A stretch of DNA of 64,000 nucleotides, taken from positions 226,548,001 to 226,612,000 of the forward strand of contig OZ024740.1 of NCBI GenBank assembly GCA_964016885.1, written 5' to 3'. Positions within the stretch are counted from its first letter, which is position 1. Every line of letters starts with the position of its first letter. This document shows positions 9,977 to 59,104 of the stretch, piece after piece. Position numbers and translations under genes: made by a program. This stretch comes from Eledone cirrhosa (taxonomy: Eukaryota). The notes below the pieces were generated by a model. That model saw only the letters and a list, made by a program, of their open reading frames with translations. It did not search any database and was not told where the DNA came from.

Positions 9977-9980
<4 letters not shown>

Positions 9981-10167
9981 TTAATATAGATGAGATTCTA
10001 CAGGACTAGAACTGTTTCATTCTTTAGAAATCATCATTCCTGATAATTTCTAAAGAATGAAACAGTTCTAGTCCTGTAGAATCTCATCTATATTAAAACT
10101 TTTATACTCTGCAATGTATTGAGTACCTTACTTACTGTGGTTACCTCCGATTCAACCCGGAATAACG
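9977..10167 (+). mobile_element. Palindromic hammerhead-bearing element, family 1
   Basis: 60-bp arms 9977-10036 and 10041-10100 (1 mismatch) plus a one-sided tail to 10167. Flanked by (TA)n. Same family as 46527-46713. Confidence 0.85.
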
Positions 10168-10196
10168 TATATATATATATATATATATATATATCT

Positions 10197-10536
10197 CATC
10201 ATCATCATCATCATTTTACGTCCGCTTTTCCCTGCTAGCAAGGGTGGGATGGGAACTGATTCTGGCTTAATTTCTACAGCTGGATGCCCTTCCTAACACC
10301 AACCTCATTTACAGTGAGTGCTGGGTGCTTTTTTGCCGTGGCACCTCCACGACCACTTCACAGTGGAATGATAGGGACCCCAGTCCCTATCATCTCATTT
10401 CTACAGCTGAGTAAACTGGAGTAATGTGAAATAAAATGTCTTGCTCAAGGAAACAACACATCACCCGGTCTGAGAATTGAACTCACAACCTTTCGATTGC
10501 AAGGCCAATGCACTAACCACTAAGCCATGTGCCTCC
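10197..10536 (-). mobile_element. tRNA-derived SINE family A (RTE-type (ATG)n tail)
   Basis: Minus strand has an A box TGGCTTAGTGG, a B box GTTCAATTC, a CORE-like CCTTGAGCAAGACA..TATTTCAC body and a 3' tail AAAGCGGACGTAAAATGATGATG. Confidence 0.85.
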
Positions 10537-11328
10537 ACATATATATATATATAGGCAAATGGCTTAGTGGTTAGTGCATTGAGCTTGCAATTGGTATGTT
10601 GTGAGCTTGATTCTCAACTGGGTGATGTGTTGTGCTCTTAGCAAGACATCACTGGTGCTAATCTGTATTGGCCATTGCCTTCCCCTTGGACAACATCGGT
10701 GGTGATATTAACCTCCATGATGGGCTGAGAGTCCACAGCATGTTTACTTATGTTCCCATATTTTATAGAGTGCATTTAGTGTATTTCAACAATGTCCTAG
10801 CACTCAGGAGAAGAATCCTTCTGATCCTTAGTTTGGCAGGTTTTCTGTGGCTGGATGCTCTTCCTATCACAAATCACTTTACAGAGTGTACTGGATGCAT
10901 TTTATCATGAGTCCAGCGAGAGGTTGTTATGTCCTAAATACAACTGAAATGTGGTCTTAACCCTTTGTTTGCCAAATTTTCTTATAGTTAGATGACCTCT
11001 TATCTCCAACTACTTTACTGTAAATATATATATATGTGTGTGTGTGTTTGTGTGTGTTTATGTGTTTATTTGTGTGTGTGTATGTGTGTGCATGTGTGTG
11101 TGTGTGTGCTTCAGGGAGATAGGCCAGGCTACTCACCTACAACCTCCAAAACTTTTTTCAAAACTTCAATGTTCCAACCTGCTCTCTCTCTCTCTCTCTA
11201 CTGAAGAAGGACTAAGATCCAAAACTCTGAACCATCCTCTGCTTCCTCCTAAGTGTGATACTAAGAAGACTTTATATTTTTGCATCCCTGTGTTAGTGTT
11301 GTCATTTCTTCATTTCTTTAACTATATC

Positions 11329-16270: not shown

Positions 16271-16666
16271 TAAATAATTTCTCAATACAGTTGCTCCCTT
16301 CCTAAGGTTTCAAAGCGTACTCTAGCATAGTTCATAGAGACACTACTTATGATAGTGCTTCTTATCTTTCAGGCAAAAATAAGATGGTGGACTTCATATA
16401 ATATATGTGTGTGTATATATATATATATATATGGGGGGGGGGGTTAATTTGCTTGAAGCATTGTAGAGTGTAAAAATTGGTTGTGTTTTTGGAGATGCTA
16501 CAATGCAAGTGAGATTGTAAATATCAAGGAACAAAATTAGATGACAAAAGAAAACAGGCAGAAGTACCAGAGATAATGTTACTTTGGAAATATTTATTAG
16601 TATCTATGTTTTGGATGTACCATCTATTATCAAGAGGGCTGAAGAGAACCTCGGTAATGTCATAGA

Positions 16667-17393
16667 ATATGTACGTCTCTGTGGCTCCTGTTATATAAGT
16701 ATATATGTACGTCTCTGTGGCTCATGTTATATAGGTATATATGTACGTCTCTGTGGCTCATGTTATATAGGTATATATGTACGTCTCTGTGGCTCATGTT
16801 ATATAGGTATATATGTACGTCTCTATGGCTCATGTTATATAGGTATATATGTATGTCTCTGTGGCTCATGTTATATAGGTATATATGTACGTCTCTGTGG
16901 CTCATCTTATATAGGTATATATGTACGTCTCTGTGGCTCATGTTATATAGGTATATATGTACGTCTCTGTGGCGCATGTTATATAGGTATATATGTACGT
17001 CTCTGTGGCTCATGTTATATAGGTATATATGTACGTCTCTGTGGCTCATCTTATATAGGTATATATGTACGTCTCTGTGGCTCATGTTATATAGGTATAT
17101 ATGTACGTCTCTGTGGCTCATGTTATATAGGTATATATGTATGTCTCTGTGGCTCATGTTATATAGGTATATATGTACGTCTCTGTGGCTCATCTTATAT
17201 AGGTATATATGTACGTCTCTGTGGCTCATGTTATATAGGTATATATGTACGTCTCTGTGGCGCATGTTATATAGGTATATATGTACGTCTCTGTGGCTCA
17301 TGTTATATAGGTATATATGTACGTCTCTGTGGCTCATCTTATATAGGTATATATGTACATCTCTGTGGCTCATGTTATATAGGTATATATGTA
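16667..17393. repeat. 36-bp minisatellite, 20 units, with an 8-unit higher-order duplication
   Basis: Unit ATATGTACGTCTCTGTGGCTCATGTTATATAGGTAT. The variant pattern of units 6-11 recurs in units 14-19. Confidence 0.95.
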
Positions 17394-17631
17394 TCATTGA
17401 CTGAGCACACGTGCTTATTCTCCAAAAATATGTTTTCATTCCTTCTTCTCATTCTTTATCTTTCTCTTTCATCTTTCATGTCTTATTCTATCTTCTGATC
17501 AAGGACTAGTGTCTGAAATATAAAAATTCTTTTCCTATTATAGAAGCACTAAACTAATTTATTTCTTCCTTGTACTGTGGTGTTTGCTTCGTTGCTTCTG
17601 TTTATTTTTTGCACACACACACACGTGTGTG

Positions 17632-32316: not shown

Positions 32317-32500
32317 TATATTAGAAAGATCTGGGTCCCATTGGCTGAACTCTTGTCATTTCAACAGCAATTCCCAGACTCTGGAACTAGCTGTCGAAAC
32401 AGCAAGAGCTCAGCTGTTGGGCCCCAACTCTTTCTAATATAGTCACACTCTACTATCCCAAGTATCGAGTACTCTGCTAAATAATGATCTAACACTAGGC
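32317..32500 (+). mobile_element. Palindromic hammerhead-like element, family 2 (diverged copy)
   Basis: Imperfect palindrome 32317-32441. Its tail CACTCTACTATCCCAAGTATCGAGTACTCTG is shared with 48621-48822 and 57653-57851. Confidence 0.75.
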
Positions 32501-41346: not shown

Positions 41347-41697
41347 GGAGGCCATGGCTTAGTGGTTAGAGCATTGGCCTTGCAATCGAAAGGTTGTGAG
41401 TTCAATTCTCAGACTGGGTGATGTGTTGTTTCCTTGAGCAAGGCACTTTATTTCACATTGCTCCAGTTTACTCAACTGTAGAAATGAGATGATAGGGACT
41501 GGGGTCTCTATCATTCCACTGCAAAGTGGTCGTGGAGGTGCCACGGCAAAAAAAGCAACCACCACTCACTGTAAATGAGGTTGGTGTTAGGAAGGGCATC
41601 CAGCTGTAGAAATCAAGCCAGAATCAGTTCCCGTCCCACCCTTGCAAGCAGGGAAAAAGCGGACGTAAAATGAAATGATGATGATGATGATGATGAT
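41347..41697 (+). mobile_element. SINE family A, full copy on the plus strand
   Basis: GGAGGCCATGGCTTAGTGGTTAG..GAGTTCAATTC..AAAGCGGACGTAAAATGAAATGATGATG. Confidence 0.9.
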
Positions 41698-45803: not shown

Positions 45804-46097
45804 CATCATCATCATCATTTTACGTCCACGGCAACTGATTCTGGCTTGATTTCTACAGCTGGATGCCCTTCCTAACACCAACCTCATTTACAGTGAGAGC
45901 TGGGTGCTTTTTCTCGTGGCTCCTCCACGACCACTTTGCAATGGAATGATAGGGACCCCAGTCCCTATCATCTCATTTCTACAGCTGAGTAAACTGGAGC
46001 AATGGGAAATAAAATGTCTTGCTCAAGGAAACAAGAATTGAACTCACAACCTTTCGATTGTAAGCCCAATGCTCTAACCACTAAGCTATGTGCCTCC
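45804..46097 (-). mobile_element. SINE family A copy with internal deletions
   Basis: Matches family A. Confidence 0.8.
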
Positions 46098-46171: not shown

Positions 46172-46526
46172 ATGTATATATGTATATACATATGTAAATA
46201 TATGTGTGTATATGTATATATATGTGTGTGTATATGTATATACACACACATGCACACATAAACATATATATATACATATGTTTACAGAGTTAACACTCCT
46301 TTGATCCTAGATCAGGGATCAGCAAGTTTGTAGTGGCTCAATTTTGATCTTTTTTTTTTTGCTCATGTCTTAGATGTATATTATATTATTTGAATAAGAC
46401 TAAGGATCACTGAAAATACCTCAATGGACCACTTGTTCTTCCCTGTCTAGATTATCTTATTCACAACTAGTTGTAATGTGTATATATATATATATGTATA
46501 TATATATGTGTATATATATATATATA

Positions 46527-46706
46527 CGTTATTCCGGGTTAAATTGGAGGTAACCACAGTAAGTAAGGTTCTCAATACATAGCAGAGTATAAAAGTTTTA
46601 ATATAGATGAGATTCTACAGGACTAGAACTGTTTCATTCTTTAGAAATCATCAGGATTCCTGATGATTTCTAAAGAATGAAACAGTTCTAGTCCTGTAGA
46701 ATCTCA

Positions 46707-46713
<7 letters not shown>
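46527..46713 (-). mobile_element. Palindromic hammerhead-bearing element, family 1
   Basis: Perfect palindrome 46601-46713 (56-bp arms, 1-nt spacer). The one-sided tail 46527-46600 matches the reverse complement of 10095-10167. Confidence 0.9.
46655..46703 (+). ncRNA. Type I hammerhead ribozyme motif
   Basis: GAUUC-CUGAUGA-U-UUC-UAAA-GAA-U-GAAA-CAG-UUCUAGUC-CUG-UA^GAAUC. Stem I is 5 bp, stem II is 3 bp with a non-canonical U.U closing pair, stem III is 4 bp, and the triplet is GUA. Confidence 0.7.
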
Positions 46714-48620: not shown

Positions 48621-48822
48621 ATAACAAAGGAATTGTGGTAAGGAACCAGATGGACCATAATGCACCAGAGTACTCAATACTTAGGGTAGTAGAGTACGAA
48701 ATAGGAAAGAGTATGACCCCGACGGCAGAGCTCAAGCCGTTTCGACAGCTATTTCTGGATTAGTCCAGAAATAGCCGTCGAAACGGCTTGAGCTCTGCCG
48801 TCGGGGTCATACTTTTTCCTAT
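48621..48822 (-). mobile_element. Palindromic hammerhead-like element, family 2
   Basis: 59-bp arms 48701-48759 and 48764-48822 (2 mismatches) plus a one-sided tail, embedded in (TA)n. Confidence 0.9.
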
Positions 48823-57652: not shown

Positions 57653-57851
57653 ATAGGAAAATGTTCAAGACTCCGACGGCAGAGCTCAAGCCTTTTCGAC
57701 GGCTATTTCAGTCCAGAAATAGCCGTCGAAACGGCTTGAGCTCTGCCGTCGGAGTCTTGAACATTTTCCTATTACCCACTCTACTACCCTAAGTATTGAG
57801 TACTCTGGTCCGTTATCGTCCATCTGGTTCCTTACCACACTTCCTTCGTTA
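57653..57851 (+). mobile_element. Palindromic hammerhead-like element, family 2
   Basis: 57-bp arms 57653-57709 and 57716-57772 (1 mismatch). The tail to ~57851 is homologous to the reverse complement of 48621-48700. Confidence 0.9.
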
Positions 57852-59104
57852 TATATATATATATATATATACATATATACATATGTATATATACATATAT
57901 ACATATGTATATATATACATATATACATATATATATAGAGAGAGGGGGGGGGGCAAGCAAACGTACATACACACACAAGTAAATATGCAAATACATACAC
58001 ACACGTAAATTGAACAAACTTTCGCTTTAGTGTTGTCGGAAAGTCGCACACACAGACACAAACTCCGTGAGAGGTTCACTGACACATATGAGCACCTATA
58101 TAGAAAATGAACACGCACACACATAAATACACTCACATACACACACGCAACGTACACTCACTCACTCACTCACTCACTCACACACATACACGTGAGCACA
58201 TGCTTACTTCCATCTAGACATACACACTTAAGCGTGAAATGAAACCATGTGATCGTATAAAGACGAATAAATCAACGCACACATACACATACGTGCGAGC
58301 ACACAGATACAGACTTAGACACATACACACACTTATCTACATTTACGTATGTACATTAAGATAGCTGCATACATACGTATACAGAGACACACACACACAC
58401 ATACACTTATATACAGAGATATACACACACATTTATGCACACAGACTCGCATGCTGTCATCTGAAAGTTGACAAGCATTCATACATACACACAGAGAGAA
58501 ACATACGCACATACACCCGCACATAGACACAGACATAAGCATACACTTATCCACATTTATGTACATCAGAATGGTTGCATACTCACGTATACAGACACAC
58601 ACTTATAAACAAATAATATACACATACATATATGCTCACAGACTTGCATGCTGTCACCTGAGCGTTGACATGCATTCACATACACACGCGCGCGTACACA
58701 CATACATGCATTGATGTGCACAAATACACGCAGATGGTGGTTACAGTGGCGGCGTTGATGATGATGGTGATGGCGGAGACGATGGTAGGGAATGGGGGAG
58801 GAGAAAGTTGTTTATAGTAGCAATCATCATCATCACCGCCATCATCGTCATAGCCATCGTAGTTGTCATCGTCATCATCATCATCATCATCATCATACAG
58901 GTGACCAGGGTTAGATTTAGACTTAAGTGGGCCGCTGGGCACTTCAGGTTTTGTGGGCCCCTCATACACAAAAGATTAGAATACACAGCAAACTCCCCAT
59001 TTTTCATATCAAAGTTAGGTTGGTGCAAGTAAATGGAAATTATTGTGTACAGTGCTCAGGTGCACTACAACTCTCAAAGGTGCATGTATAGTACATAGAA
59101 TAAT

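What the first reader, a model, noticed from the sequence alone, without database searches (positions are those of the whole stretch)
48621..48822. Family 2 palindromes carry a non-canonical hammerhead-like motif with covarying, bistable helices
Seen in three copies (32317, 48701, 57653): the right half of a hammerhead, C-GAAA-CGGC-uuGAGCUCu-GCCG-UC^, with a palindromic GAGCUC loop. In the 32317 copy it becomes GAAA-CAGC-aaGAGCUCa-GCUG-UU, a compensatory G-C to A-U change. The CUGAUGA box is replaced by CCAGAAAUAG or CUGGAACUAG. The upstream GCCGU (or GCUGU) co-varies too and can alternatively pair with the same ACGGC (or ACAGC), giving two mutually exclusive folds. The palindrome axis again lies just 5' of the motif, as in family 1. 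Inference: a variant-core ribozyme or a catalytically dead structural derivative with a switch-like fold.
Basis: partly seen in the sequence, partly recalled or inferred. Interest (0 to 1): 0.8.

Follow-up and report, generated by a model that had tools for sequence, protein, structure and literature searches.

The report
Halved hammerhead of a Penelope retrotransposon
These palindromes are short, front-truncated copies of the end repeat of a Penelope-like jumping gene; they keep only the right half of a hammerhead-type RNA motif whose complete form sits in the parent element, so they are likely inactive leftovers rather than a new ribozyme, and the shared break point likely marks where the element's RNA starts.

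Summary
The motif is real but misread. The three copies are head-to-head pairs of 5'-truncated pseudo-LTR fragments of a Penelope-like element (44,203 exact tail matches genome-wide). The parent, with an intact 716-aa RT/GIY-YIG ORF in 3,531-bp tandems, carries a complete type I hammerhead motif. The 'CCAGAAAUAG box' is the 3' strand of a long helix II; the true core lies 43-45 nt upstream and is missing from the short copies. In parents of the 48701 subfamily it is the known U3-A8 variant; in parents of the 32317 subfamily mostly C3-G8. The 'compensatory' G-C to A-U change is two independent CpG decays, absent from that copy's other arm. The alternative hairpin is possible but minor in the full motif and shows no covariation; in the palindromes the arms pair with each other (-63 to -113 kcal/mol). 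What stays interesting: 46 of 90 unbiased copies start within 12 nt of one position inside helix II and only 8 keep the whole motif, which points to an RNA start inside the ribozyme (untested; long copies ignore that point). No cleavage or expression data.

The parts
48762..48822 (+). Short arm: pLTR fragment from the common start (position 0, A48762) to RT start site 1 (position 60). Holds 3' strand of helix II (48764-48779), GAAA (48780-48783), helix III (48783-48801), C17 = 48802, 3' strand of helix I (48803-48807). No 5' core box.
   Evidence: parent fold
48621..48759 (-). Long arm: same fragment plus the 80-nt 'tail' to RT start site 2 (position 140), fused to (TA)n; 125/131 identical to complete-motif parent L265 (G000:C4, U3-A8 core)
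57653..57709 (-). Short inverted arm of the second copy, ends at site 1
57710..57852 (+). Long arm of the second copy, position 0 to site 2; 132/143 identical to L265
32317..32378 (-). Short inverted arm of the older subfamily B copy; keeps G and C where the right arm has the claimed A-U pair
32380..32494 (+). Long arm of the subfamily B copy, CpG-decayed, tail incomplete; 98/114 identical to complete-motif copy L237 (C3-G8 core)
46526..46713 (.). Family 1 copy for comparison: same two-arm, (TA)n-flanked build, but its compact hammerhead motif fits wholly inside the ~60-nt arm
9977..10168 (.). Second family 1 copy

Best explanation
The palindromes are pairs of short, 5'-truncated copies of the pseudo-LTR of an RT/GIY-YIG Penelope-like element, joined head to head in (TA)n repeats; they keep only the right half of the parent's type I hammerhead motif and so are predicted to be unable to self-cleave, and their shared start point inside helix II is likely the 5' end of an RNA of the element. 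Shown: the parent ORF and tandem units, the complete motif in the parent, the two fixed 3' ends (positions 60 and 140), the shared start, the CpG origin of the claimed covariation. Inferred, from the published in vitro behaviour of the anole PLE protein: the protein nicks both strands of AT-rich DNA and starts reverse transcription at two internal sites of the RNA, giving one 60-nt and one 140-nt cDNA that run off the template's 5' end and are joined by microhomology or untemplated bases. Inferred: the complete motif in read-through or tandem transcripts self-cleaves after the GUC; activity is likely not needed for mobility. Inferred and least certain: position 0 is a transcription start of an internal promoter.
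For: Longer copies share a core box 43-45 nt upstream of the truncation point (114 complete copies; 5,799 left-half matches, control 0). 27 of 30 loci found with the GIY-YIG piece have the complete motif downstream on the same strand within 1.5 kb. [quoted passage not shown] The minimum-energy fold of the youngest parent is the three-way junction with the core unpaired (P helix I/II/III 0.97/0.76/0.76); for L265 the forced hammerhead fold costs 0.3 kcal/mol. Compensation between subfamilies: C3-G8 (10 of 15 B) vs U3-A8 (75 of the first 100 A-type matches, 18 of 19 youngest), N7 free, G12-A13-A14-A15.1 nearly invariant, helix I pair C-G vs G-C, helix II G-C vs A-U in the single C parent scored. 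Long insertions have the same two-arm build and end at 60 or 140; contigs of two public runs show (AT)n loose ends at the same two sites. 5' ends: 46 of 90 within -12..+12, 41 within -4..+6, 8 through the whole motif, 2 between; 57 of 70 called inverted arms start at -5..+16. Family 1 arms start about the same distance (~58 nt) from site 1 although their motif is built differently. PMC11167929 and PMC8557442 describe the two RT starts, tail and inverted truncated copy; PMC2377424 an internal promoter in Penelope.
Against: No cleavage, cap or expression data. 12 of 12 ORF-containing arms with a visible 5' end that reach the ORF start run on past position 0, so long copies do not come from an RNA that starts there. 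An extra G at -1, expected from copying a cap, is only weakly enriched: 22 of 89 short arms vs 0 of 86 long arms, but vs 14% G in spacers p = 0.007 raw and p = 0.09 after I dropped 5 cases explained by microhomology; C at -1 is as frequent (21 of 89). 23 of the first 100 A-type cores are C3-A8 mismatches. The fold of the youngest parent is no more stable than shuffles (z = 0.34), and the single B and C representatives did not fold into the full junction. Pfam and PDB give no hit for the ORF and Rfam none for the complete motif.
Confidence: 0.9

Rival explanations
1. Same parent, but the shared start is a reverse-transcription stop or cDNA fold-back at the distal hairpin of the long helix II rather than the RNA's 5' end.
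For: Position 0 lies in the 3' strand of the distal hairpin of helix II; ORF-bearing arms pass it in 12 of 12 cases; many arms stop a few bases short.
Against: Most junction spacers lack the natural loop that fold-back would keep; both arms stop at the same point independently and copies with no inverted arm start there too; family 1 stops at a similar distance from site 1 with no such hairpin there; several insertions have a non-native G at -1 on both arms.
Confidence: 0.25
2. The short palindrome is an independent non-autonomous element (SINE- or retrozyme-like) that is transcribed from its own internal promoter and mobilised in trans.
For: Very high copy number, uniform length, tail matches outnumber left-half matches about 8 to 1 (the two patterns differ in strictness).
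Against: Each short subfamily matches a long parent subfamily; junctions differ from copy to copy, so the palindrome is made anew at each insertion; long insertions are built the same way.
Confidence: 0.12
3. One reading: a ribozyme with a new core (CCAGAAAUAG) or a selected two-state switch.
For: The box is fixed within subfamilies; the alternative hairpin has predicted probability 0.24-0.40 in the A-type complete motifs folded and 0.18-0.75 in truncated RNA; it is kept, with G-U variants, in all subfamilies.
Against: The box pairs with the 5' strand of helix II in the parent (9 contiguous pairs in L265); it varies between subfamilies; no 5' strand for helix I exists in the short arm; no compensatory change supports the alternative hairpin; transcribed palindromes fold into one long hairpin.
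Confidence: 0.03

Closest known systems
Type I hammerheads in PLE pseudo-LTRs (Cervera and de la Pena 2014, PMC4209133; parts 1-2 of 4 read)
   Same: Type I topology in the pLTR, 5-bp helix I, enlarged helix II, palindromic loop III, U3-A8 core variant (reported for Schistosoma Cercyon elements), mostly found in truncated copies.
   Different: Helix II here is far longer (about 50 nt with an internal loop and distal hairpin, vs 7-8 bp); helix III is a stable 5 bp, closer to their fungal and protist variants; most copies are cut inside helix II.
PAc (Poseidon of Anolis), Frangieh et al. 2024, PMC11167929 (parts 1-2 of 4 read)
   Same: Hammerhead upstream of two internal RT start sites that define a tail; both target strands cut; AT-rich targets; ribozyme activity not needed for insertion in vitro.
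   Different: Tail is 80 nt here (30-40 in the cited elements); the ATG lies 231 nt past position 0, not in stem II; a shared truncation point inside the ribozyme was not mentioned in the parts read.
Penelope of Drosophila virilis (Schostak et al. 2008, PMC2377424; passages and section 15 read) and PLE insertion structure in Craig et al. 2021 (PMC8557442; passages read)
   Same: Partial tandems, inverted 5'-truncated copy at the 5' end, tail at one end, internal promoter starting in the pLTR, (TA)n bias in several clades.
   Different: In Penelope the hammerhead begins at the end of the 5'-UTR intron, downstream of the start (PMC4209133); here the inferred start is inside the ribozyme.
U3-A8 hammerhead core variant (Perreault et al. 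2011, PMC3088659; passages read)
   Same: Natural covariation of the 3-8 pair, stated there to be active in vitro.
   Different: Here both states, and a C3-A8 mismatch, occur in successive subfamilies of one element in one genome.

Membership tests
Penelope-like element (EN+), parent | Single ORF with RT followed by a C-terminal GIY-YIG endonuclease | tested here: met
   716-aa ORF with RT motif and GIY-YIG-like C-terminus; Atlas leads; 2,214 relatives. Pfam and PDB blank.
Penelope-like element (EN+), parent | Tandem or partial-tandem units forming pseudo-LTRs, inverted 5'-truncated copy | tested here: met
   3,531-bp period, inverted arms in long insertions
Penelope-like element (EN+), parent | Tail between two alternative 3' ends | tested here: met
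   Ends at 60 and 140
Penelope/Poseidon clade | Placement in an RT phylogeny with named references | not tested
   Assigned from recalled motifs only; no tree, no named reference protein
Type I hammerhead, parent motif | Core N3 U4 G5 A6 N7 N8 A9 with a 3-8 pair, G12 A13 A14, A15.1-U16.1, H17 | tested here: met
   Met for B (C3-G8 10 of 15), A-old (U3-A8 9, C3-G8 3 of 13) and youngest (U3-A8 18 of 19); not met in the C3-A8 side lineage. U4-G5-A6 and A9 were required by my patterns.
Type I hammerhead, parent motif | Helices I, II, III around the core, supported by compensatory change | tested here: met
   Fold; helix I C-G/G-C and helix II G-C/A-U between subfamilies (one C copy); helix III varies only by G-U
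Type I hammerhead, parent motif | Match to an Rfam hammerhead model | tested here: not met
   0 matches at E <= 10; likely due to the long helix II (inference)
Type I hammerhead, parent motif | Self-cleavage | not testable with these tools
   No spike of genomic 5' ends at the cleavage site
Hammerhead, the three window copies | 5' core box and 5' strands of helices I and II | tested here: not met
   Absent: replaced by the inverted arm
Bistable RNA switch | Both folds supported by covariation | tested here: not met

The most novel reading that the evidence does not exclude
This Penelope lineage starts transcription inside its own hammerhead: expansion of helix II pushed the catalytic box upstream of the start, so the mRNA's 5' end carries a half ribozyme that cannot cut off the RT-loading tail, while the complete copy in read-through and tandem RNA can. 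Its RT copies that short 5' leader twice per event, which built more than 44,000 mini-palindromes. Their right halves could in principle be cleaved in trans by an RNA offering the left half (predicted duplex -25.8 vs -15.3 kcal/mol apart; I put that last step below 0.05).
Probability: 0.4. Interest if true: 0.5.

Novelty: new member of a known kind. Interest (0 to 1): 0.27.

Why it matters
As a new ribozyme core it fails. As a record of PLE mechanism it is useful: tens of thousands of insertions independently show the two internal RT starts and two-strand priming seen in vitro for one lizard element, near-identical intact tandems give an expressible protein, and successive subfamilies with C3-G8, U3-A8 and C3-A8 cores offer a natural series to ask whether hammerhead cleavage matters for PLE mobility, which the papers read leave open. 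If the start site is confirmed, a promoter inside a ribozyme would explain why these copies pile up. The 60-bp hairpins would also be double-stranded RNA wherever they are transcribed (inference).

Tried and rejected
Rfam: no hammerhead among the 150 listed of 240 window matches (90 not shown), none among 31 on 48625-48822, 0 matches on the complete motif. A core box 4-34 nt upstream (67 hits): junction accidents and chimeras in the 30 loci read, no shared sequence. GIY-YIG family search returned other PLE families, not the parent. One search was mis-registered by one base and is not used for the 3-8 counts. The C3-G8 copies of A type were selected by the pattern and are rare in the unbiased list (0 of the first 100). 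Fossil of in vivo cleavage: 5 of 90 arms start at 40-42 and, by eye, 7 of the first 100 of 2,162 matches start at the cleavage site, no more than microhomology-driven peaks elsewhere (7 at position 27): inconclusive. Global alignment of family 1 with family 2 does not beat shuffles (55 vs 45.7 +/- 5.3, max 65); only a short tail motif is shared. Sequencing runs: no RNA holder listed; runs X5 and X6 had small shares and only short pieces. Hairpin, twister, hatchet and HDV-like readings were considered from memory and dropped once the parent was found; not tested. Luense et al. 2017 on PLE hammerhead variants is not held, so I know it only through the review PMC6765202 (passages) and cannot exclude that it lists this family. 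Paper searches found nothing on this element or on C3U/G8A by those words. Earlier scan notes: none.

Full report
Observation. The three palindromes exist as described, in a 3.0-Gb animal genome rich in microsatellites (that it is a cephalopod is my impression, not tested). The + arm of the 48701 copy reads GAAA, a 5-bp helix round a GAGCUC loop, then UC with C17 at 48802. It is a dispersed repeat: 30 loci for each of two subfamilies align over about 200 nt as (TA)n, a 60-nt inverted arm, a variable junction, the same 60 nt in sense, an 80-nt tail and (AT)n. A 26-nt tail pattern has 44,203 exact matches, reversed control 0. The odd box is consensus in each subfamily, so it is not copy-specific decay.

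The parent. A pattern asking for a standard core 4-34 nt upstream gave 67 hits with no shared sequence in the 30 loci read. With a gap of 35-65 nt it gave 134 hits (control 2), among them a recurring upstream sequence. Following it upstream led to RT and GIY-YIG remnants on the same strand about 1.2 kb before the motif. A search with the endonuclease piece found near-identical open frames in arrays of period 3,531 bp; L274 holds an intact 716-aa ORF, and 27 of the 30 loci returned have the complete motif downstream within the 1.5-kb flank. Pfam and PDB are blank for this protein; the Atlas points to HTH_animal, RVT_1 and GIY-YIG clusters and 2,214 relatives of like length score E <= 1e-20, none of the 120 listed with an informative name. 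With tandem units, inverted truncated copies and a tail, this is an endonuclease-bearing Penelope-like element; the Penelope/Poseidon label rests on recalled motifs. The window's long arms are 125/131 and 132/143 identical to complete copy L265 and 98/114 to L237 (best of 137 complete copies).

The ribozyme motif. Counting the A of the common start as 0, the parent has the 5' strand of helix I and the core box at about -50 to -37, a long helix II with an internal loop and distal hairpin, then GAAA, helix III, the cleavage site after 40, and the 3' strand of helix I. The minimum-energy fold of the youngest parent is this junction (helix probabilities 0.97, 0.76, 0.76), though no more stable than shuffles (z = 0.34). 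Among 114 complete copies G12, A13, A14 and A15.1 are nearly invariant; the 3-8 pair is C-G in 10 of 15 B copies and U-A in 18 of 19 youngest and 9 of 13 older A copies; helix I shows C-G against G-C and helix II G-C against A-U (one C copy) (this set is query-biased). In the unbiased first 100 of 5,799 A-type matches the pair is U-A 75 times, C-A 23, U-G 2, and N7 takes all four bases (counted by eye). U3-A8 is a known natural variant, reported in Schistosoma PLEs (PMC4209133) and called active in vitro (PMC3088659). Single B and C representatives did not fold into the whole junction, and Rfam does not recognise the motif.

The claimed covariation. Both changes in the 32317 copy are CpG transitions. 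Its other arm, identical at insertion by inference, keeps G and C there. Over 434 harvested arms CpG sites mismatch two to six times as often as other sites; the two changes co-occur in 9 of 63 B arms (p = 0.066, sample drawn with that copy), 0 of 8 A/young and 0 of 3 C arms carrying the first change; the upstream U is fixed in 60 of 63 B arms. Its true partner is the 5' strand of helix II. The alternative hairpin is thermodynamically real (0.24-0.40 in complete A-type motifs, 0.18-0.75 in truncated RNA) but has no compensatory support, and a transcript through a whole palindrome folds into one long hairpin of -113, -107 or -63 kcal/mol.

How the copies likely arise. In 90 copies taken in genome order (the first 90 of 100 listed), 46 start within 12 nt of position 0 (41 within -4..+6), 34 start further 3', 2 lie between -44 and -13 and look like alignment into the other arm, and 8 run through the complete motif; 57 of 70 called inverted arms start at -5..+16. 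In 28 loci around long open frames, insertions are likewise two head-to-head arms ending at 60 or 140; contigs of runs X1 and X4 show (AT)n loose ends at those sites (the runs may derive from the same source as the assembly). This matches the anole PLE protein in vitro: both strands cut at AT-rich DNA, two internal RT starts defining the tail, ribozyme not needed (PMC11167929), and the general PLE layout (PMC8557442). I infer that each event makes two cDNAs that are joined at their far ends. A stop shared by cDNAs of 60 and 140 nt is a template position, most simply an RNA 5' end; Penelope has an internal promoter in its pLTR (PMC2377424), the sequence at 0 resembles an initiator as I recall it, and family 1 arms start about 58 nt from their site 1, which explains why the axis lies just 5' of the motif in both families. 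Against this, 12 of 12 ORF-bearing arms with a visible 5' end pass position 0, so long copies need read-through, tandem or circular templates, and the cap-derived G at -1 is only weakly enriched (22 of 89; p = 0.09 after dropping 5 microhomology cases). I put the RNA-start reading at about 0.6 within the main explanation. Genomic 5' ends show no clear spike at the cleavage site, and no RNA run was listed, so cleavage and expression are untested.

Verdict. A new member of a known kind: truncated pLTR copies of a Penelope-like element with an ordinary-core, long-helix-II hammerhead motif. The variant-core and switch readings are not supported. The residual interest is the shared start inside the ribozyme and the C3-G8 / U3-A8 / C3-A8 series. 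My searches found no description of this element, but Luense et al. 2017, the supplements of PMC4209133 and repeat libraries were not seen.

Noticed in passing
window 46526-46713 and 9977-10168; further copies: Family 1 has a complete compact type I hammerhead motif with a U10.1-U11.1 mismatch and helix I changes that compensate between subfamilies; it shares a short tail motif with family 2. Its autonomous parent was not looked for.
   Followed up: partly
window 57503 (-), 57331 (-), 8891 (-): A third repeat with a CUGAUGA box; two of the three copies look like a minimal hammerhead.
   Followed up: no
G000 first 100 matches; L185-L213: A side lineage with a C3-A8 mismatch makes up 23 of 100 A-type cores and evidently kept spreading, which fits ribozyme activity being dispensable.
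   Followed up: partly
L073, L084, L066, L072, L136, L168: Family 2 arms joined directly to the hammerhead region of other PLE families or to family 1 arms; found with a pattern that favours them, so frequency unknown. May reflect co-insertion of cDNAs from different elements.
   Followed up: partly
L121-L134: At least five other PLE families with long RT/GIY-YIG ORFs; several have their own hammerhead-like motifs, L122 also with a long helix II. 10,597 GIY-YIG candidates in the genome.
   Followed up: partly
L386:4271-7842: A 55-bp piece from inside the parent ORF is amplified about 65-fold in tandem at the junction of two arms.
   Followed up: no
matches: About 11 of 100 copies have an internal deletion between the two similar 7-nt repeats (3' strands of helices II and III), removing GAAA and helix III.
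   Followed up: no
window 10471-10616: Inverted pair of a tRNA-like repeat around a (TA)n spacer; weak tRNA-like Rfam hits also at 41352-41417 and 46030-46089.
   Followed up: no
window 16559-17542 and 54732 to about 55700: Tandem arrays with 36-bp and 21-bp periods.
   Followed up: no
window about 52300: A snippet that reads like a LINE reverse transcriptase fragment (recalled resemblance, not tested).
   Followed up: no
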